DNA of 40,697 nucleotides from a virus. Positions 33,382-40,697 of the stretch are shown here, piece after piece. A model generated the notes under the pieces. The model had not been told where the DNA came from. It saw only the letters and a program-made list of their open reading frames with translations, and made no database searches. A program made the position numbers and the translations under genes. The number at the start of each line of letters is the position of its first letter. Positions within the stretch are counted from its first letter, which is position 1. The DNA lies in the UHGV virus genome UHGV-1333064; one strand, 5' to 3'.

Positions 33382-33607
33382 TCTCCTTACGTTTCAGTTC
33401 TTCCAGGATGGCGCGCATCTTCTCTGCCACAATCGGGTTAACCGAGCGGATGAAGCGGTCGCGGGTTATGTTTTTATGTACAGCGGTATGGTAATAGCGT
33501 GGATTTTTTGCCATTATTCCTCCTGCAATGAGTGCACACGATTTGCATCTGAAGGCCAGTTCTGTTCGCGCAGACTGGCTTTCGCCATTTTTGAAACTTC
33601 CCATCAC
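33368..33607 (-). CDS. small hypothetical protein
   Basis: 79-aa ORF, ATGA-coupled to the upstream CII/YdaT-like gene and overlapping the O-like gene start. Confidence 0.35.
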   Translation of the reverse strand: MMGSFKNGESQSARTELAFRCKSCALIAGGIMAKNPRYYHTAVHKNITRDRFIRSVNPIVAEKMRAILEELKRKESGRG

Positions 33608-34146
33608 ATAACCCCCAACATCGAAGTGACCATAGCCATCAGCGGCGCGGTCAGATCCGGGTCGACACGGAACATCTCTACAATCCCCTCACTGAGTTCC
33701 TTGAGCTTCTGGTGACGCGGGGCGTTCATCGCAACGGCCACTTTCGCCTCGCTCGTTTCTTTCTCAAGTCGAGCTAAGCGGGACATAAAACTGTCCTCTG
33801 GAAGAAGTCGATGGCGATACTCCAGCGGCAAAACGGCCATGATTGCGGGCGTCAGCTGGCGCACGTTCTCGCGGTACTGCTCAGAGTCGAAGCGGTTATC
33901 CAGGAAGCGGAACAGCTTCTGGCGCGCCCGGCTGATGTCGTCCGGAAAGCTGATGGCGGTCCCGCCCTGCTCCCGGTATTCGTTGATGATCAGCGCTGAC
34001 ACCACGTCCTGATTATCCAGCGCCGATGACCAGGCACGGACCGCATCGCGGATCTTTTCGTGGTCCGGCGTCGCTTTAGCTTGAGCGCGGTTTATCATCG
34101 CTCCCGGGTGTATTCCGGTATTGTGTTGATACGCAAGTGAATGCAT
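33604..34146 (-). CDS. CII-like / YdaT-family early regulator candidate
   Basis: 180-aa ORF directly downstream of the Cro-like gene on the early-right strand; position matches lambda cII / Rac ydaT. Family assignment is from memory. Confidence 0.45.
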   Translation of the reverse strand: MHSLAYQHNTGIHPGAMINRAQAKATPDHEKIRDAVRAWSSALDNQDVVSALIINEYREQGGTAISFPDDISRARQKLFRFLDNRFDSEQYRENVRQLTPAIMAVLPLEYRHRLLPEDSFMSRLARLEKETSEAKVAVAMNAPRHQKLKELSEGIVEMFRVDPDLTAPLMAMVTSMLGVM

Positions 34147-34163
34147 TGCTTTCCCTTTCGTGG

Positions 34164-34397
34164 TTAGGCCGCAGTATCACGCGGCGATGCGAATACCAGG
34201 CTTTCTTTTAGGACCGGAGCCTGGCGGTGAAAATTCTTCGTGCCTTTCTCGATAGCAGATGCCATTTCTGGAGATGCCCGGCGATTTCCGTAGGCGATCT
34301 GGTCCAGGTAACCTGGCGTCGTGTTAGCCAACTTTGCGAGCTGCGCCCATTCGTCGGTAGTGGCGGCCTTGCGCCAGCGGTGTAGTTCAGTGCTCAT
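34164..34397 (-). CDS. Cro/YdaS-like HTH regulator
   Basis: 77-aa ORF divergent from the repressor gene across the operator region; HTH-like segment EWAQLAKLANTTPGYLDQIAYGNRRASPEMASAIEKGT. Confidence 0.6.
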   Translation of the reverse strand: MSTELHRWRKAATTDEWAQLAKLANTTPGYLDQIAYGNRRASPEMASAIEKGTKNFHRQAPVLKESLVFASPRDTAA

Positions 34398-34429
34398 TGG
34401 TGTCTCCGGGTGAGTCGTTTGATTTGGAG

Positions 34430-34495
34430 TTTAGCGTTATGCTAAATACTACGCAAGCATCATTTAGCAATTTGCACATTTATCATTTTGCTAAA
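34430..34495. promoter_or_regulatory. right operator region: three 17-bp operators (6-5-6, half-site TTTAGC) between the divergent cro-like and cI-like genes
   Basis: O1 TTTAGCGTTATGCTAAA (34430-34446, perfect palindrome), O2 TTTAGCAATTTGCACAT (34463-34479), O3 TTTATCATTTTGCTAAA (34479-34495). Confidence 0.6.
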
Positions 34496-34513
34496 AGCAG
34501 TAACAATGCAGGT

Positions 34514-35191
34514 ATGGAAAATAAAGAAATCAGAAAAGCCAACCTGGAAGCGCTGTACGAGAAGCGTCAGCACGAGTCTGGAATGACCAAAGCGCAGTTT
34601 GCCGAGCTCATCGAGACAAGTCCGGCTGCGCTTAGCCAGCTACTGGGACCAAACCCTCATCGCAATATCGGCGATAAGATGGCTCGCAAAATTGAAACTG
34701 CGCTTGATCTGCCTTTTGGCTGGATGGATGTTTTACACGCCAGTGAAGAACCTTCGAACGTTGCATTTCGAGGACTGAACGAGACAAAAGGAAGTTATCC
34801 TGTAATCAGCTGGGTAAGCGCGGGGCAATGGATGGAAGCTGTAGAACCTTATCACCGAAGAGCGATAGATCGCTGGTATGACACGACTGTTGACTGCTCA
34901 GAAGATTCATTCTGGCTGGACGTTAAAGGGGATTCTATGACCTCCCCGGCTGGACTAAGCATACCCGAGGGAGCAGCGATACTTGTTGATCCTGAAGTCG
35001 AGCCGCGCAACGGAAAGCTGGTTGTCGCGAAGCTAGAAGGCGATAACGAAGCGACCTTTAAGAAGCTTGTAATCGATGCCGGCAGACGCTTCCTAAAGCC
35101 CCTTAACCCCGCATATCCAATGCTAGAAATTAATGGAAACTGCAAAATCATCGGCGTTGTGGTTGATGCCAAAATACTAAACATCCCATAA
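34514..35191 (+). CDS. CI-like repressor (N-terminal HTH, C-terminal LexA/S24 autopeptidase domain)
   Basis: Track ORF 34397 (TTG) trimmed to ATG 34514 (MENKEIRKANLEAL). C-terminal region parallels lambda cI (GDSMTSP, ILVDPEVEP, ATFKKLVIDAGRRFLKPLNPAYPM), so the S24 Ser/Lys dyad is likely present. Confidence 0.8.
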   Translation: MENKEIRKANLEALYEKRQHESGMTKAQFAELIETSPAALSQLLGPNPHRNIGDKMARKIETALDLPFGWMDVLHASEEPSNVAFRGLNETKGSYPVISWVSAGQWMEAVEPYHRRAIDRWYDTTVDCSEDSFWLDVKGDSMTSPAGLSIPEGAAILVDPEVEPRNGKLVVAKLEGDNEATFKKLVIDAGRRFLKPLNPAYPMLEINGNCKIIGVVVDAKILNIP

Positions 35192-35210
35192 CCTCACGCA
35201 AAACCCCTCA

Positions 35211-35236
35211 AGCCCGCCATCGCGCGGGCTTTTTTA
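35211..35236 (+). terminator. intrinsic terminator after the repressor gene
   Basis: AGCCCGC-CATCGC-GCGGGCT followed by TTTTT, 20 nt after the repressor stop. Confidence 0.55.
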
Positions 35237-35274
35237 CGTCCCGAATTACTTCGCTGTAAATTTTTAATCGCTTA

Positions 35275-35349
35275 TTAATCAATACGCTAAATAAAACCAT
35301 TCAATAATTTAGCATTTTGCTATTGCGCATAATTTAGCATCACGCTAAA
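35275..35349. promoter_or_regulatory. second operator cluster (left-operator-like): three 17-bp sites with TTTAGC/GCTAAA half-sites
   Basis: TTAATCAATACGCTAAA (35275-35291), TTTAGCATTTTGCTATT (35308-35324), TTTAGCATCACGCTAAA (35333-35349); same 6-5-6 architecture as the 34430-34495 cluster. Confidence 0.5.
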
Positions 35350-35649
35350 TTTACCCCATCGAAACGAAACATCGACAGCTGAGCGAAGTTAGCCAGCGGC
35401 GGACAGCAAGTCGCCTGCTCATTAAGAATTCAGTCAAGCAGCAAATCACCCGGAGCGCTCCTGGCAAATTGAAATGGCGCCCAATGGGATTGAGGCAGGT
35501 GTGTAACGCGTGGCGGGTATAGCACACGAAGAGGACTCCGCACCGGAATGGTTTGCTGCTCAGTTCCCGAACATCGGGGAAGCTTTACCAGCAGCTCTTT
35601 GCGAGGGGCTGACGGCAAATCTACTCCACTTATTTAAAAGAGACGGTAT

Positions 35650-35823
35650 ATGGATAATCAGGATAATGAGTTAAGAAAGGTTGTTCAGGAACTTGCTGAT
35701 GAAGAAGGCATCAGCTTTTCCGATGCCCTAGATGTTTCGATTAAAGCGCTGCGTTATGAGGTAGAGCGCAGAAAATCGTTTAACGGTGAAGCTGCTTGTG
35801 ATGGCTCTGCAATTACTTCTTAG
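35650..35823 (+). CDS. small acidic hypothetical ORF (57 aa), not in the supplied ORF track
   Basis: ATG 35650-35652 to TAG 35821-35823, read by eye; its 3' end overlaps the convergent 92-aa gene by 11 nt. Weak Shine-Dalgarno, so coding status is uncertain. Confidence 0.25.
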   Translation: MDNQDNELRKVVQELADEEGISFSDALDVSIKALRYEVERRKSFNGEAACDGSAITS

Positions 35824-36091
35824 CCAAGTACCAAGAGGTGTCTGCGGCTTCGGAAACCAGTACGTAATAGCTTTGCTTTACACTACTAGCTATACCTCTG
35901 ACTTCCTCTCTAACGTTATATGCAGTTGATGTTTTTACGGTTGTATATTCAGCTGTTGGGAGGTTAAACCAAGTGCCATTACCATCCTGTATCTCACGCG
36001 AATAACCCTTTGCTTTCATCTTTTCATGAAGATTTTCATAGTCTTCAGAATCAGCGCCGCGCAACTCAACTCGAACAATATATCTTGCCAT
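35813..36091 (-). CDS. hypothetical protein (92 aa) at the rexAB-equivalent position
   Basis: Track ORF 35813..36232 trimmed to MARYIVRVELRGADSEDYENLHEKMKAKGY... (ATG 36089-36091) with AGGAA 7 nt upstream. Opposite strand to both cI and the early-left operon. Confidence 0.5.
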   Translation of the reverse strand: MARYIVRVELRGADSEDYENLHEKMKAKGYSREIQDGNGTWFNLPTAEYTTVKTSTAYNVREEVRGIASSVKQSYYVLVSEAADTSWYLAKK

Positions 36092-36106
36092 AAGAAGATT
36101 CCTATA

Positions 36107-36151
36107 TTGACTGTGGAATGAGCAACATATCAGTTTCCTTTGACTGTGGAA
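36107..36151. repeat. two direct 12-bp repeats TTGACTGTGGAA upstream of the 92-aa gene
   Basis: Copies at 36107-36118 and 36140-36151 (33-bp period), 16 nt upstream of the 92-aa gene start; each contains TTGACT. Confidence 0.3.
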
Positions 36152-36205
36152 AGCAAAGGGACACGGGCCGGGCGTGGATAAAAATCCCGGCACCAACCAT
36201 CGCAA

Positions 36206-36231
36206 AGCCGCCACCTGAGCGGCTTTTTTCA
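36206..36231 (+). terminator. intrinsic terminator between the immunity region and the early-left operon
   Basis: AGCCGC-CACCTGA-GCGGCT followed by TTTTTT. Confidence 0.5.
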
Positions 36232-36362
36232 TACCTAAGAAACTTCGCAGAGGTTTCTAAGTTATGAGACGGCGGCCATCCACCGCCCATTGAAACACTG
36301 AATAAATGCGTTGAAGTCTTGTATTAACCGTTCCGTTCGCCGCGATAAGGCCAAGAGGATTT

Positions 36363-36572
36363 ATGAGTGATTTGGAGTTGGGCTTAAAGATATACGCATT
36401 ATGGTTTGTCGGGACGTTTCTGCTCGGCATAGCAATCAACTCGCTGACGAAAAAAGAACATCGCCAGCCAATTTCAAAACTAGCCATTGACCATGTACGC
36501 ATGTCTTCCGCAATAACCATTGTGGGCCTGATTGTGTGCGGTATGGTCTGGTTCTTATTCAAGGTGGTGTGA
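36363..36572 (+). CDS. small membrane protein (two predicted transmembrane helices), first gene of the early-left operon
   Basis: 69-aa ORF with hydrophobic segments IYALWFVGTFLLGIAI and ITIVGLIVCGMVWFLF. Confidence 0.45.
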   Translation: MSDLELGLKIYALWFVGTFLLGIAINSLTKKEHRQPISKLAIDHVRMSSAITIVGLIVCGMVWFLFKVV

Positions 36573-36732: not shown

Positions 36733-36869
36733 TCAATCATCACCTGCTGCGCGCCGCGCAGAGCAAAGCAGCCATTGCCCTGTTTATCGGTGATGGCGCC
36801 ATGTGGATGGCAGCCTACGACGAAATGAAGGTTGCCATCGGTTATCCGTGGCATAGAAAAACAGCCTAA
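36729..36869 (+). CDS. small hypothetical protein (46 aa), not in the supplied ORF track
   Basis: ATG 36729-36731 overlaps the upstream stop (ATGA); read by eye as MINHHLLRAAQSKAAIALFIGDGAMWMAAYDEMKVAIGYPWHRKTA. Confidence 0.3.
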   Translation: MINHHLLRAAQSKAAIALFIGDGAMWMAAYDEMKVAIGYPWHRKTA

Positions 36870-36939
36870 TTCCCCTATTCAACCGATCGGCCTGGCTAAA
36901 AGCGGGCGGGATCTGCACATCCAAATTTCAGGAGAAACC

Positions 36940-37911
36940 ATGAGCGAAGTAATGGACTTAACTGTCATCGAAATCACGCCGGAGCAGGCGCCAGCGCTTT
37001 ACGTAGCGGGCGGCCTTGACGCTTACCTCGAGCAAATCCGCCAGGCAGTAAACGAAGTGCCGGACCTGTCAACGAAGAAAGGCCGTGACCGTGTCGCCTC
37101 TCTGGCGGCGCAGGTGTCGCGCAGCAAGACGGCAATCGAAAAGCCGGGGCGTGAGTACCTGAAGCGCCTGAAAGAGGCTGTGCGCCCCGCTGAGGCGGAA
37201 ATTAAGCGTTTCGTTGATGCCTGCGACGAGCTACGTGATGCCACCCGCCGCCCACTCACCGAATGGGAAGCCGAGCAGGAGCGCATTAAGGCTGAAGAAG
37301 CCATGAACGCGTTGCACGCCGAAGCGCTGGAAATGAACATCAAGTTCGATCAGGAGTTGGCGGCCAAGTTCGAAGCAGACCACGAAATGGCTCTGCTGAT
37401 GAACAAGGATTTCGACCGTGACCGCGAAGAGCAGCGCCGCCAGGCGGAACAGGCTCAACGTGAGCATGAAGAGCGCATTAAGAGTGAAGCGGCAGAGCAA
37501 GCCCGACGCGATGCCGAAGCGAAGCACAAAGCAGAGATTGAAGCCGCAGCGCGCCGTGAAGCTGAAGAGAAAGCTCGCGCTGAACTGGCGGAGCGCCAGC
37601 GCATTGAAGCGGAACAGCGTGCGGCACGCGAGAAGCAGGAAGCAGAAGCCCGGGCAGAACGCGAAAAAGCCGCGGCAGTGGAAGCTGAGCGCCTGAAGGC
37701 AAAACAGGCCGAAGATGCTCGCCTGGCCGAAGAGAAGCGCCTCGCCGATGAACAGGCAAAGCGCGAAGCTGACGTGAAGCACCGCAAGACGGTCGGCACC
37801 AACATCGTTAACGCGCTCACCAGCCACACCAGCTTAACCCGCGAACAGGCTATCGAAGTGCTCACCGCACTTAAAGACGACCTAATCCCCTGCGCAAAAA
37901 TTCATTACTGA
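36940..37911 (+). CDS. highly charged coiled-coil protein (Ala/Glu/Arg/Lys-rich)
   Basis: Track ORF 36832..37911 trimmed to MSEVMDL (ATG 36940) with AGGAGAAACC upstream. A roughly 170-aa stretch is almost pure A/E/R/K/Q repeats (REAEEKARAELAERQRIEAEQRAAREKQEAEARAEREKAAA). Confidence 0.5.
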   Translation: MSEVMDLTVIEITPEQAPALYVAGGLDAYLEQIRQAVNEVPDLSTKKGRDRVASLAAQVSRSKTAIEKPGREYLKRLKEAVRPAEAEIKRFVDACDELRDATRRPLTEWEAEQERIKAEEAMNALHAEALEMNIKFDQELAAKFEADHEMALLMNKDFDRDREEQRRQAEQAQREHEERIKSEAAEQARRDAEAKHKAEIEAAARREAEEKARAELAERQRIEAEQRAAREKQEAEARAEREKAAAVEAERLKAKQAEDARLAEEKRLADEQAKREADVKHRKTVGTNIVNALTSHTSLTREQAIEVLTALKDDLIPCAKIHY

Positions 37912-40158: not shown

Positions 40159-40697
40159 ATTACGGATTTGTAAGTGTTTGCGTTGAGCAATTCAATGAAG
40201 CGGTTAAGCTGCCACCCGCACACAATCCAGCATCACGAATTTGGCAGCGCCCGTTCCTTAAATGGGCTGGCGGCAAATATTCGCTGCTGCCGGAACTGGA
40301 TCGCCTGATCCCCGCAGGGAAACGCCTTATTGAGCCTTTTGTGGGTGGCGGCTCGGTGTTCCTTAACTCAGACAAGCACGAACGCNNNNNNNNNNNNNNN
40401 NNNNNNNNNNNNNNNNNNNNNNATCAGATGCTGGCGGTGGTCCCCGACTCGGTGATCTATGAGGCAATGAAGGCATTCAGGCATCTGAATGATGCCGAAA
40501 ACTACACGGTAATTCGTGAAGCATTCAACGCGCAGCGGCTGGATGCGGTCGAGCGCGCAGCAGCGTTCCTTTACCTCAACCGGCACTGCTTCAACGGGCT
40601 GATCCGTTATAACCTGGACGGTTTTTTTAACGTCGGCTTTGGGAAATATAAAGCGCCATATTTCCCGGAAGAAGAGATCAGGGCATTTAAGCGGAAG
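40155..40697 (+). CDS. dam: DNA adenine methyltransferase, Dam family (interrupted by the N gap, 3' end outside the window)
   Basis: Read by eye: N-terminus ...RPFLKWAGGKYSLLPELDRLIPAGKRLIEPFVGGGSVFLN (KWAGGK and FxGxGS SAM motifs); after the gap FLYLNRHCFNGLIRYNLDGFFNVGFGKYKAPYFPEEE, closely parallel to E. coli Dam. Frame is continuous if the gap is truly 37 nt. Confidence 0.8.
   Translation, partial: MNYGFVSVCVEQFNEAVKLPPAHNPASRIWQRPFLKWAGGKYSLLPELDRLIPAGKRLIEPFVGGGSVFLNSDKHERXXXXXXXXXXXXXQMLAVVPDSVIYEAMKAFRHLNDAENYTVIREAFNAQRLDAVERAAAFLYLNRHCFNGLIRYNLDGFFNVGFGKYKAPYFPEEEIRAFKRK
40386..40422. other. run of 37 N (assembly gap or masked bases) inside the methylase gene
   Basis: Literal n characters in the sequence. 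Confidence 0.98.

What the first reader, a model, noticed from the sequence alone, without database searches (positions are those of the whole stretch)
34398..35349. Repressor gene flanked by two clusters of three 17-bp operators sharing a TTTAGC half-site
Operator-like 6-5-6 sites occur both in the divergent cro-like/cI-like intergenic region and immediately downstream of the repressor gene's terminator, with no intervening exclusion genes. The half-site differs from lambda's, indicating a distinct immunity specificity; the perfect palindrome TTTAGCGTTATGCTAAA is the likely high-affinity site.
Basis: seen in the sequence. Interest (0 to 1): 0.45.

Follow-up and report, generated by a model that had tools for sequence, protein, structure and literature searches.

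The report
Prophage repressor gene flanked by operators
This is the on/off control region of a lambda-like prophage: a repressor gene with three repressor-binding sites on each side. It is an ordinary design whose binding-site sequence has not been studied, and its nearest characterised relative is Shiga-toxin phage H-19B.

Summary
Six 17-bp sites of the form TTTAGC-N5-GCTAAA lie in two clusters. One cluster (34430, 34463, 34479) sits between a divergent cro-like gene and a cI-like gene. The other (35275, 35308, 35333) sits just after the cI terminator. No other site in the 40.7-kb window has two or fewer mismatches.

About 90 related loci keep all six sites at fixed spacing. The 6-bp arms are almost invariant, while the centres and spacers drift. 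Two Pantoea prophages changed every arm in both clusters to TTTATC/GATAAA, along with a repressor recognition-helix residue.

The repressor is a full-length lambda-cI homologue with an HTH domain and an S24 autopeptidase domain (Ala103-Gly104, Ser141, Lys183). The two sites with perfect arms each lie in the spacer and -10 of near-identical outward promoters, which I read as PR and PL. A conserved -10 lies 6 nt before the cI ATG, which predicts a leaderless PRM transcript.

The layout is homologous to the phage H-19B immunity region (cI DNA-binding domain 51% identical, Cro 61%).

Verdict: a real, typical lambdoid OR/OL switch, and a new specificity within a known family. No binding or promoter experiment exists. 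Low to moderate interest.

The parts
33604..34146 (-). YdaT-type CII-like regulator gene, downstream of cro in the PR operon
   Evidence: Pfam YdaT_toxin, E 6.9e-27. PHROG 163, CII-like transcriptional activator, E 1e-59.
34164..34397 (-). cro-like gene (77 aa)
   Evidence: ORF. Weak HTH_3 match. 61% identity over all 77 aa to H-19B Cro.
34428..34456 (-). Predicted PR: -35 TTGCGT (34456..34451), 17-bp spacer, -10 TAAACT (34433..34428), transcription start near 34421
   Evidence: Hexamer scan, 7 of 12 matches. The TTGC of the -35 is the only conserved block in the otherwise variable 16-bp OR1-OR2 spacer. 24 of 29 core bases are identical to PL (counted by eye on the alignment; the tool reports 29 of 56 over the longer stretch). 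Prediction only.
34430..34446 (.). OR1, TTTAGCGTTATGCTAAA (perfect arms), covering about -25..-9 of the predicted PR
   Evidence: The arms are identical in all 80 IMG/VR loci.
34463..34479 (.). OR2, TTTAGCAATTTGCACAT (weak right arm), spanning -51..-35 of the predicted PRM start
   Evidence: Three mismatches. It is conserved in position and sequence in all relatives, and its left arm changes to TTTATC in Pantoea.
34479..34495 (.). OR3, TTTATCATTTTGCTAAA, overlapping the predicted PRM -35; shares base 34479 with OR2
   Evidence: The arms are near-invariant (one right-arm variant in 4 of 80 loci) and the central 5 bp vary.
34480..34507 (+). Predicted PRM: -35 TTATCA (34480-34485), 16-bp spacer, -10 AACAAT (34502-34507). 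The start is predicted at A34514 of the cI ATG, giving a leaderless mRNA.
   Evidence: A hexamer with A at position 2 and T at position 6 (nAnnAT, or nAnnCT in four loci) lies exactly 6 nt before the ATG in all 13 aligned relatives and all 80 IMG/VR loci, although the surrounding bases vary. Inference.
34514..35191 (+). cI-type repressor gene (225 aa): N-terminal HTH, Ala103-Gly104 cleavage site, Ser141/Lys183 dyad
   Evidence: The MENKEIRK start is conserved. An in-frame stop lies immediately upstream in L010 and within 6 codons in H-19B.
35210..35237 (+). Intrinsic terminator of cI
   Evidence: 8-bp stem with 6 G-C pairs, followed by a T run. A hairpin is present at this position in the relatives, with different stem sequences.
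35275..35291 (.). OL3, TTAATCAATACGCTAAA
   Evidence: The AATCAA...GCTAAA pattern is conserved 33 bp from OL2.
35308..35324 (.). OL2, TTTAGCATTTTGCTATT. The two deviant bases (TT) form the start of the PL -35.
35323..35351 (+). Predicted PL: -35 TTGCGC (35323-35328), 17-bp spacer, -10 TAAATT (35346-35351), start near 35358, reading away from cI
   Evidence: 7 of 12 matches. The -35 begins with TTG in all 77 IMG/VR loci that have an OL. Near-identical to PR. Prediction only.
35333..35349 (.). OL1, TTTAGCATCACGCTAAA (perfect arms), covering about -25..-9 of the predicted PL

Best explanation
This is the immunity region of a lambdoid prophage, working as a lambda-type bistable switch.

Shown by sequence:
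- A 225-aa cI homologue (HTH plus a LexA-like self-cleaving domain) lies between two clusters of three 17-bp, two-fold-symmetric sites with arms TTTAGC/GCTAAA.
- A Cro homologue is transcribed divergently.
- The sites, their individual deviations and their spacings are conserved across Enterobacterales prophages. The arm sequence changed in all six sites together in one diverged lineage.

Inferred from geometry and the lambda paradigm:
- Repressor dimers bind OR1 and OL1, which lie over the spacer and -10 of PR and PL. This shuts off both early operons (cro, YdaT-type cII, replication and Q on the minus strand; bet/exo recombination genes on the plus strand).
- Repressor at the weak OR2 (-51..-35) contacts RNA polymerase and activates PRM, which makes a leaderless cI mRNA.
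- OR3 overlaps the PRM -35. It serves for negative autoregulation and as the site through which Cro turns off cI.
- The lambda-like C-terminal domain provides pairwise cooperativity and possibly OL-OR looping across about 0.9 kb.
- RecA-stimulated cleavage at Ala103-Gly104 induces the prophage.

In lysogens cI is terminated at 35210-35237, before OL.
For: - Motif confinement and statistics.
- Protein identities.
- Phylogenetic footprint: arm columns have mean entropy 0.054 bits, against 0.78-0.86 bits for spacer columns and 0.23-0.45 for the central 5 bp. This comes from 34 distinct OR and 59 distinct OL sequences.
- Fixed register: the 84 nt from OR1 to the cI ATG align without gaps in 13 lineages, down to 42% identity in the repressor's N-terminal DNA-binding domain (NTD). 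OL spacings of 33 and 25 bp hold in the 11 relatives aligned and in the 77 IMG/VR loci read at those offsets.
- Concerted change: all six sites became TTTATC/GATAAA in Pantoea L011 and L012. Recognition-helix residue 39 changed from A/M/T to Q there, and it is also Q in H-19B.
- PR and PL cores are near-identical, and a conserved TTG(C) -35 lies outside the operator arms.
- A conserved nAnnAT hexamer lies 6 nt before the ATG.
- H-19B OR and OL have the same architecture. Its operators were studied experimentally by Shi & Friedman 2001, as cited in PMC8065619.
- The CP-933P PaaR2/YdaS/YdaT switch has a leaderless repressor gene, and its PL promoter responds to both regulators in reporter assays (PMC8630535).
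- Prophage context: Q, terminase, portal, tape measure, bet and exo genes.
Against: - There are no binding, footprint or transcript data for this repressor.
- The promoter hexamers are weak (7-8 of 12), and the tool's stricter promoter scan found none in 34000-36000.
- OR2 has three mismatches and shares a base pair with OR3. The 16-bp centre spacing means the two may not be occupied together, so the lambda occupancy order cannot be assumed.
- OR1-OR2 spacing is 33 bp, against 24 bp in lambda. Cooperativity there is unproven.
- No N-like antiterminator follows PL.
- The -10 hexamers of PR and PL overlap the operator arms, so their conservation is not independent evidence.
Confidence: 0.85

Rival explanations
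1. Only the sites with two or fewer mismatches are true operators. Under this reading 34463-34479 is not a separate repressor site. Its conservation reflects PRM promoter or UP-element sequence, or the 33-bp block TTTAGC-N21-GCTAAA is a single composite unit. OR would then have two functional sites.
For: All three mismatches are in one arm. The site shares a base with OR3. Its central 5 bp are invariant, unlike those of the other sites, which points to an additional constraint. Twenty other 3-mismatch matches occur by chance in the window.
Against: Its good arm changes from TTTAGC to TTTATC in concert with the other sites in Pantoea. It spans -51..-35 of the predicted PRM start, within 1 bp of lambda OR2. 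The homologous H-19B region is reported to contain four operators, so the H-19B authors counted more sites there, not fewer.
Confidence: 0.1
2. The downstream cluster is not a promoter-operator (PL/OL). It would be only an auxiliary binding array, used for looping or for roadblocking read-through from cI, or a remnant with no promoter.
For: The PL hexamers match only 7 of 12 positions. The strict scan found no promoter. The first ORF is about 300 nt downstream, and no N gene is present.
Against: 24 of 29 core bases are identical to PR (my count on the alignment). The TTG of the -35 is conserved in 77 of 77 loci while the following three bases vary. The deviant bases of OL2 create that -35. The homologous H-19B cluster lies upstream of N, where lambdoid phages place PL. 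The bet/exo/gam genes downstream have the expected orientation.
Confidence: 0.04
3. The repeats are chance AT-rich similarity, or they are bound by a protein other than cI and Cro, such as the YdaT-type regulator.
For: Both intergenic regions are AT-rich. OL3 contains AATCAA, which is half of the published YdaT palindrome (PMC9986795 abstract).
Against: Two perfect-arm sites are expected about 0.002 times by chance. The phylogenetic footprint and the concerted change argue against chance. No TTGATT-N6-AATCAA site with three or fewer mismatches lies anywhere near the region.
Confidence: 0.01

Closest known systems
Phage H-19B immunity region (cI, cro, OR, OL; Shi & Friedman 2001, Mol Microbiol 41:585, cited in PMC8065619)
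   Same: - The repressor begins MENK(E/D)IRK.
- The NTD is 51% identical over 75 aa by tblastn, or 42% over the 99-aa alignment. Cro is 61% identical.
- OR aligns without gaps from O1 to the cI ATG, including the abutting O2/O3 pair and the -10-like hexamer 6 nt before the ATG.
- OL has the same O2/-35/O1 layout: TTTATCATTTTGCTATTGCC...TTTATCATTCCGATAAA.
   Different: - The H-19B arms are TTTA(T/C)C / G(A/C)TAAA rather than TTTAGC / GCTAAA. Recognition-helix residue 39 is Q rather than A.
- H-19B is reported to have a fourth OR site. A candidate, TTTATCACACAGAACAA near cro, has no counterpart here.
- About 1.7 kb of genes separate H-19B cI from OL, and N follows PL.
- H-19B uses a lambda-type CII, not a YdaT-type one.
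Phage lambda cI/cro/OR/OL switch
   Same: - The repressor is homologous over its full length, with the Ala-Gly site and Ser/Lys dyad.
- Three 17-bp sites occur per operator.
- O1 covers -25..-9 of PR and PL, and OR2 lies at about -51..-35 of PRM (predicted starts; lambda coordinates from established knowledge).
- The cI mRNA is leaderless (predicted here).
   Different: - The operator sequence is unrelated.
- OR1-OR2 spacing is 33 bp rather than 24 bp, and OR2-OR3 is 16 bp (sharing one base) rather than 23 bp.
- There are no rexAB genes between cI and OL, and no N.
- The CII is YdaT-type.
CP-933P cryptic prophage switch PaaR2/YdaS/YdaT (PMC8630535, PMC9986795)
   Same: - The genes are arranged as divergent repressor and Cro-like genes, followed by a YdaT-type CII.
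- The repressor mRNA is leaderless.
- The PL -35 and -10 match those of PR, with three OL sites.
- The palindrome half is GTTTAGTAA, which also starts TTTAG.
   Different: - In CP-933P the repressor is co-transcribed with a toxin-antitoxin pair.
[quoted passage not shown]
- I did not test homology between the repressor here and PaaR2.
Klebsiella phages KO-TP1 (PQ571297) and vB_Kpn_Chronis (MN013086), and about 28 E. coli prophages
   Same: They share this immunity type. NTD identity is 94% and 73% for the two phages. All six sites are conserved. In E. coli, 22 genomes match at 99% or more and 5 at 95-99%.
   Different: These records are annotated only as 'transcriptional regulator' or 'LexA family protein', with no operators annotated. 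The genes downstream of PL differ, and the sequences diverge at a mosaic junction near 35419.

Membership tests
Lambdoid phage immunity region (CI/Cro switch with OR and OL) | Repressor with an N-terminal HTH DNA-binding domain and a C-terminal S24 (LexA-like) autocleavage domain with an Ala-Gly site and a Ser/Lys dyad | tested here: met
   HTH_3 (22.9 bits, just under Pfam's 23-bit cutoff) plus Peptidase_S24, E 1.9e-29. Alignment to lambda cI 3bdn places Ala103-Gly104, Ser141 and Lys183 at the lambda positions.
Lambdoid phage immunity region (CI/Cro switch with OR and OL) | A divergently transcribed cro gene that shares the intergenic operator region | tested here: met
   77-aa ORF at 34164-34397 (minus strand), 116 bp from the cI ATG and 61% identical to H-19B Cro.
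Lambdoid phage immunity region (CI/Cro switch with OR and OL) | Multiple related, partially symmetric operator sites in OR that overlap divergent promoters PR and PRM | tested here: met
   Three sites with a phylogenetic footprint. The promoter overlap is predicted from hexamers and conservation only.
Lambdoid phage immunity region (CI/Cro switch with OR and OL) | A second operator cluster, OL, over an outward promoter PL on the far side of cI | tested here: met
   Three sites at 35275-35349. The PL core is near-identical to PR.
Lambdoid phage immunity region (CI/Cro switch with OR and OL) | Repressor and Cro actually bind these sites with differential affinities and regulate PR, PRM and PL | not testable with these tools
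   This needs EMSA, footprinting and reporter assays.
Lambdoid phage immunity region (CI/Cro switch with OR and OL) | Lambdoid genome context: early right operon with cII-like, replication and Q genes, then late genes; early left operon with recombination genes | tested here: met
   YdaT-type CII, O-like protein, DnaB-like helicase, Q-like protein, terminase, portal and tape measure on the minus strand; Bet and Exo on the plus strand.
H-19B immunity specificity (homoimmune with H-19B) | The same operator arm sequence and the same recognition helix | tested here: not met
   The arms differ at position 5: G here, T or C in most H-19B arms. NTD identity is only 42-51%, and residue 39 is A rather than Q. 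The phage is therefore predicted to be heteroimmune, but this is untested biologically.
H-19B-like architectural subfamily of lambdoid switches | OR alignable without gaps: O1, a 16-bp spacer holding the PR -35, an abutting O2/O3 pair sharing one base, and 18 nt to an MENK... start | tested here: met
   Ungapped alignment of 13 lineages, including H-19B.

The most novel reading that the evidence does not exclude
The switch may be wired differently from lambda in one respect that is conserved from H-19B to this group. OR2 and OR3 abut and share a base pair (centres 16 bp apart), and OR1 lies about one helical turn further from OR2 than in lambda. Under this reading, repressor at OR2 (activating PRM) and repressor or Cro at OR3 (blocking the PRM -35) are mutually exclusive, not sequentially additive. 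That would give a sharper toggle of cI autoregulation. Separately, the natural pairing of arm position 5 (G or T) with helix residue 39 (A/M/T or Q) would be a single-residue, single-base specificity swap that defines new immunities.
Probability: 0.25. Interest if true: 0.4.

Novelty: new member of a known kind. Interest (0 to 1): 0.22.

Why it matters
It adds a well-defined, widespread immunity type to the lambdoid repertoire. It occurs in E. coli, Enterobacter, Klebsiella, Citrobacter and other prophages, and in at least 80 IMG/VR contigs.

It supplies a precise operator and promoter map that public annotations lack. Those annotations even start the repressor gene inside OR1.

It also provides a natural comparative series: the TTTAGC group, the Pantoea TTTATC group and H-19B. 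This series could be used to test how HTH repressors change specificity, and how the abutting OR2/OR3 arrangement of H-19B-type switches affects prophage stability. That question bears on Stx-phage induction. Conceptually it is the lambda paradigm, so the gain is incremental.

Tried and rejected
- **Strict sigma-70 scan of 34000-36000:** it found no promoter. The promoters I propose come from a relaxed hexamer scan plus conservation.
- **Alternative PRM with -10 TATCAT (34481-34486):** rejected. It has no usable -35, H-19B has TATCCA at that position, and it would put OR2 between the -35 and -10.
- **Rfam scan of 33500-36500:** only sub-threshold chance hits.
- **Folding the first 86 nt of the predicted PL transcript, looking for a nut-like or regulatory hairpin:** z-score -0.15, so not structured.
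- **YdaT palindrome TTGATT-N6-AATCAA:** nothing near the immunity region, and fewer matches window-wide than the shuffles give.
- **A fourth OR site as in H-19B:** no candidate. The next-best PWM score anywhere in the window is 9.7 bits.
- **Literature:** Shi & Friedman 2001 and Tyler et al. 2004 are not held. No held paper contains the operator strings. The papers that mention Chronis are genome announcements, resource descriptions or taxonomy by title and abstract; I did not open them.
- **The longer ORFs (TTG 34397, ATG 34439) as the repressor start:** rejected, because in-frame stops lie just upstream of the MENKEIRK ATG in L010 and H-19B.

Full report
**Observation**

The region 34398-35349 contains a 225-aa gene (34514-35191, plus strand) flanked by two clusters of 17-bp sites matching TTTAGC-N5-GCTAAA. 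Mismatches in the 12 arm positions are:

| Site | Coordinates | Mismatches |
|---|---|---|
| OR1 | 34430-34446 | 0 |
| OR2 | 34463-34479 | 3 |
| OR3 | 34479-34495 | 1 |
| OL3 | 35275-35291 | 2 |
| OL2 | 35308-35324 | 2 |
| OL1 | 35333-35349 | 0 |

- All five sites in the 40,697-base window with two or fewer mismatches lie in these clusters. Shuffles give a mean of 1.3 such sites, scattered, with a maximum of 4 in 200.
- The remaining twenty 3-mismatch matches are at background level.
- A weight matrix built only from the homologous sites of five diverged relatives ranks these six sites first (17.3-25.3 bits). The next best is 9.7 bits.
- An intrinsic terminator (35210-35231 plus a T run) follows the gene. 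No ORF lies in the 83 bp before the downstream cluster.
The 34463 site is weak on its own. It shares base 34479 with its neighbour. 'Perfect palindrome' applies only to the arms, and to two sites.

**Genes**

- The central protein has HTH_3 and Peptidase_S24 domains. It aligns with lambda cI over residues 10-218 (E 5e-32), which places Ala103-Gly104, Ser141 and Lys183 at lambda's cleavage site and catalytic dyad.
- The divergent 77-aa gene (34164-34397, minus strand) is 61% identical to H-19B Cro.
- It is followed by a YdaT-type CII-like regulator. Then come an O-like initiator, a DnaB-like helicase, a Q-like antiterminator and virion genes.
- Bet and Exo lie on the plus strand beyond the downstream cluster.
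- The window is therefore a lambdoid prophage. Near-identical immunity regions occur in about 28 of 5,426 complete E. coli genomes and in Klebsiella phage KO-TP1.

**Comparative evidence that the sites are operators**

- Relatives came from GTDB genomes (Enterobacter, Citrobacter, Atlantibacter, Phytobacter, Biostraticola, Pantoea), from named phages (KO-TP1, Chronis, H-19B) and from 80 IMG/VR contigs.
- From OR1 to the cI ATG (84 nt), the OR region aligns without a single gap in 13 lineages, down to 42% identity in the repressor's N-terminal DNA-binding domain.
- OL3, OL2 and OL1 keep their 33-bp and 25-bp spacings in the 11 relatives aligned and in the 77 IMG/VR loci read at those offsets.
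- Across 34 distinct OR and 59 distinct OL sequences, arm columns have mean entropy 0.054 bits. The central five base pairs have 0.23-0.45 bits, and the inter-site columns have 0.78-0.86 bits.
- Each site keeps its own deviation: OR2 right arm GCAYAT, OR3 left arm TTTATC, OL2 right arm GCTATT, OL3 left arm (T/C)(T/A)AATC. The deviations therefore look selected, not decayed.
- In two Pantoea prophages all six sites in both clusters read TTTATC/GATAAA instead. The repressor's recognition-helix residue 39 changes from A/M/T to Q there, and it is also Q in H-19B, whose arms are mostly TTTAYC.
- A concerted change of both clusters together with the DNA-binding domain is what one expects if a single protein reads all six sites.

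**Promoters (inferred)**

The two perfect-arm sites sit in near-identical contexts:

- Minus strand: TTGCGT-N17-TAAACT (34456..34428).
- Plus strand: TTGCGC-N17-TAAATT (35323-35351).
- 24 of the 29 core bases are identical.

I read these as PR (towards cro) and PL (away from cI), with O1 covering about -25..-9 of each, as in lambda.

- The TTG(C) of each -35 is conserved even though it lies outside the good operator arms. It is the only conserved block in the OR1-OR2 spacer. In OL it is created by the two 'mismatches' of OL2.
- A hexamer with A at position 2 and T at position 6 (nAnnAT; AACAAT here, 34502-34507) lies exactly 6 nt before the cI ATG in every relative, within otherwise variable sequence. 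Four IMG/VR loci read GAGACT instead.
- This predicts that PRM starts at the A of the ATG and gives a leaderless cI mRNA. Lambda cI and paaR2 of CP-933P are known to be leaderless (PMC8630535).
- With that start, OR2 spans -51..-35, within 1 bp of lambda OR2, and OR3 covers the PRM -35.
- All three promoters match the consensus weakly (7-8 of 12), and a strict scan found none. They remain predictions.

**Mechanism**

The best-supported reading is a lambda-type switch:

- Repressor at O1 (and O2) represses PR and PL.
- Repressor at OR2 activates PRM.
- OR3 mediates autorepression and shut-off of cI by Cro.
- The lambda-like C-terminal domain supplies cooperativity and perhaps OL-OR looping over about 0.9 kb.
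- RecA-stimulated self-cleavage induces the prophage.

Binding order, cooperativity and looping are inferred, not shown. One structural departure is conserved from H-19B to this group. OR2 and OR3 abut (centres 16 bp apart), and OR1-OR2 spacing is 33 bp rather than 24 bp. This may make OR2 and OR3 occupancy mutually exclusive.

**Comparison with known systems**

- The closest characterised system is phage H-19B. Its OR and OL have the same layout, and its operators were analysed by Shi & Friedman 2001. I could not obtain that paper. A review reports four OR sites in H-19B (PMC8065619).
- The present region lacks a counterpart of the candidate fourth H-19B site, has a different arm base 5, a YdaT-type CII, no genes between cI and OL, and no N gene after PL.
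- Having no genes between cI and OL is not special. It is variable within the family (absent in H-19B and Biostraticola). From my own knowledge, P22 and 434 have the same arrangement.
- No held paper contains these operator sequences. Public records annotate the gene only as a LexA-family regulator.

**Verdict**

It is a new, uncharacterised immunity specificity within a known, H-19B-like architectural family of lambdoid switches, and it is not a new kind of system. Interest is low to moderate.

Noticed in passing
window 34397-34513 (also L001 4341, L002 2384, L013 3340): Public records start the repressor CDS too early. RefSeq and KO-TP1 use ATG 34439, which lies inside OR1 (250 aa). Chronis uses the TTG at the position of 34397 (264 aa). 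The conserved start is ATG 34514 (MENKEIRK, 225 aa). In-frame stops lie directly upstream of it in the Biostraticola relative and in H-19B.
   Followed up: yes
window 35813-36232 (-): A GhoS-like type V antitoxin endoribonuclease gene lies on the minus strand inside the predicted PL operon, oriented against it (Pfam GhoS, E 2e-4; annotated ghoS in E. coli FDAARGOS_1250). I saw no obvious GhoT toxin partner downstream of it. A small two-helix hydrophobic ORF lies divergently at 36363-36572 (+).
   Followed up: partly
window 35358-35650: About 300 nt follow the predicted PL start with no convincing gene and no N-like antiterminator. Close relatives share only the first 60 nt or so and then diverge at a mosaic junction near 35419. 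E. coli MB20 has an HNH endonuclease gene annotated under its match, which is split into two pieces in this stretch. The leader has no significant RNA structure (z -0.15) and no Rfam hit.
   Followed up: partly
window 33604-34146 (-): The cII position is occupied by a YdaT-family protein, as in Rac and CP-933P, and not by a lambda-type CII. The YdaT palindrome published for CP-933P (TTGATT-N6-AATCAA) is not present near the immunity region, so this YdaT's target here is unknown.
   Followed up: partly
L011 and L012 (Pantoea), OR and OL regions: Relatives with about 45% NTD identity carry the same six-site architecture, but every arm reads TTTATC/GATAAA and helix residue 39 is Q. This is a natural specificity variant, useful for testing the recognition code.
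   Followed up: partly
L003 (H-19B) 2398-2414: TTTATCACACAGAACAA, between the PR region and the cro ribosome-binding site, is a candidate for the fourth OR operator reported for H-19B. The window has no equivalent.
   Followed up: no
window 40386-40422: A run of 37 N (masked or unresolved bases) lies near the end of the window.
   Followed up: no
window 36832-37911 (+): A 359-aa protein of unknown function (PHROG 1376) in the early-left operon has a long, highly charged, Ala/Glu/Lys/Arg-rich central segment.
   Followed up: no
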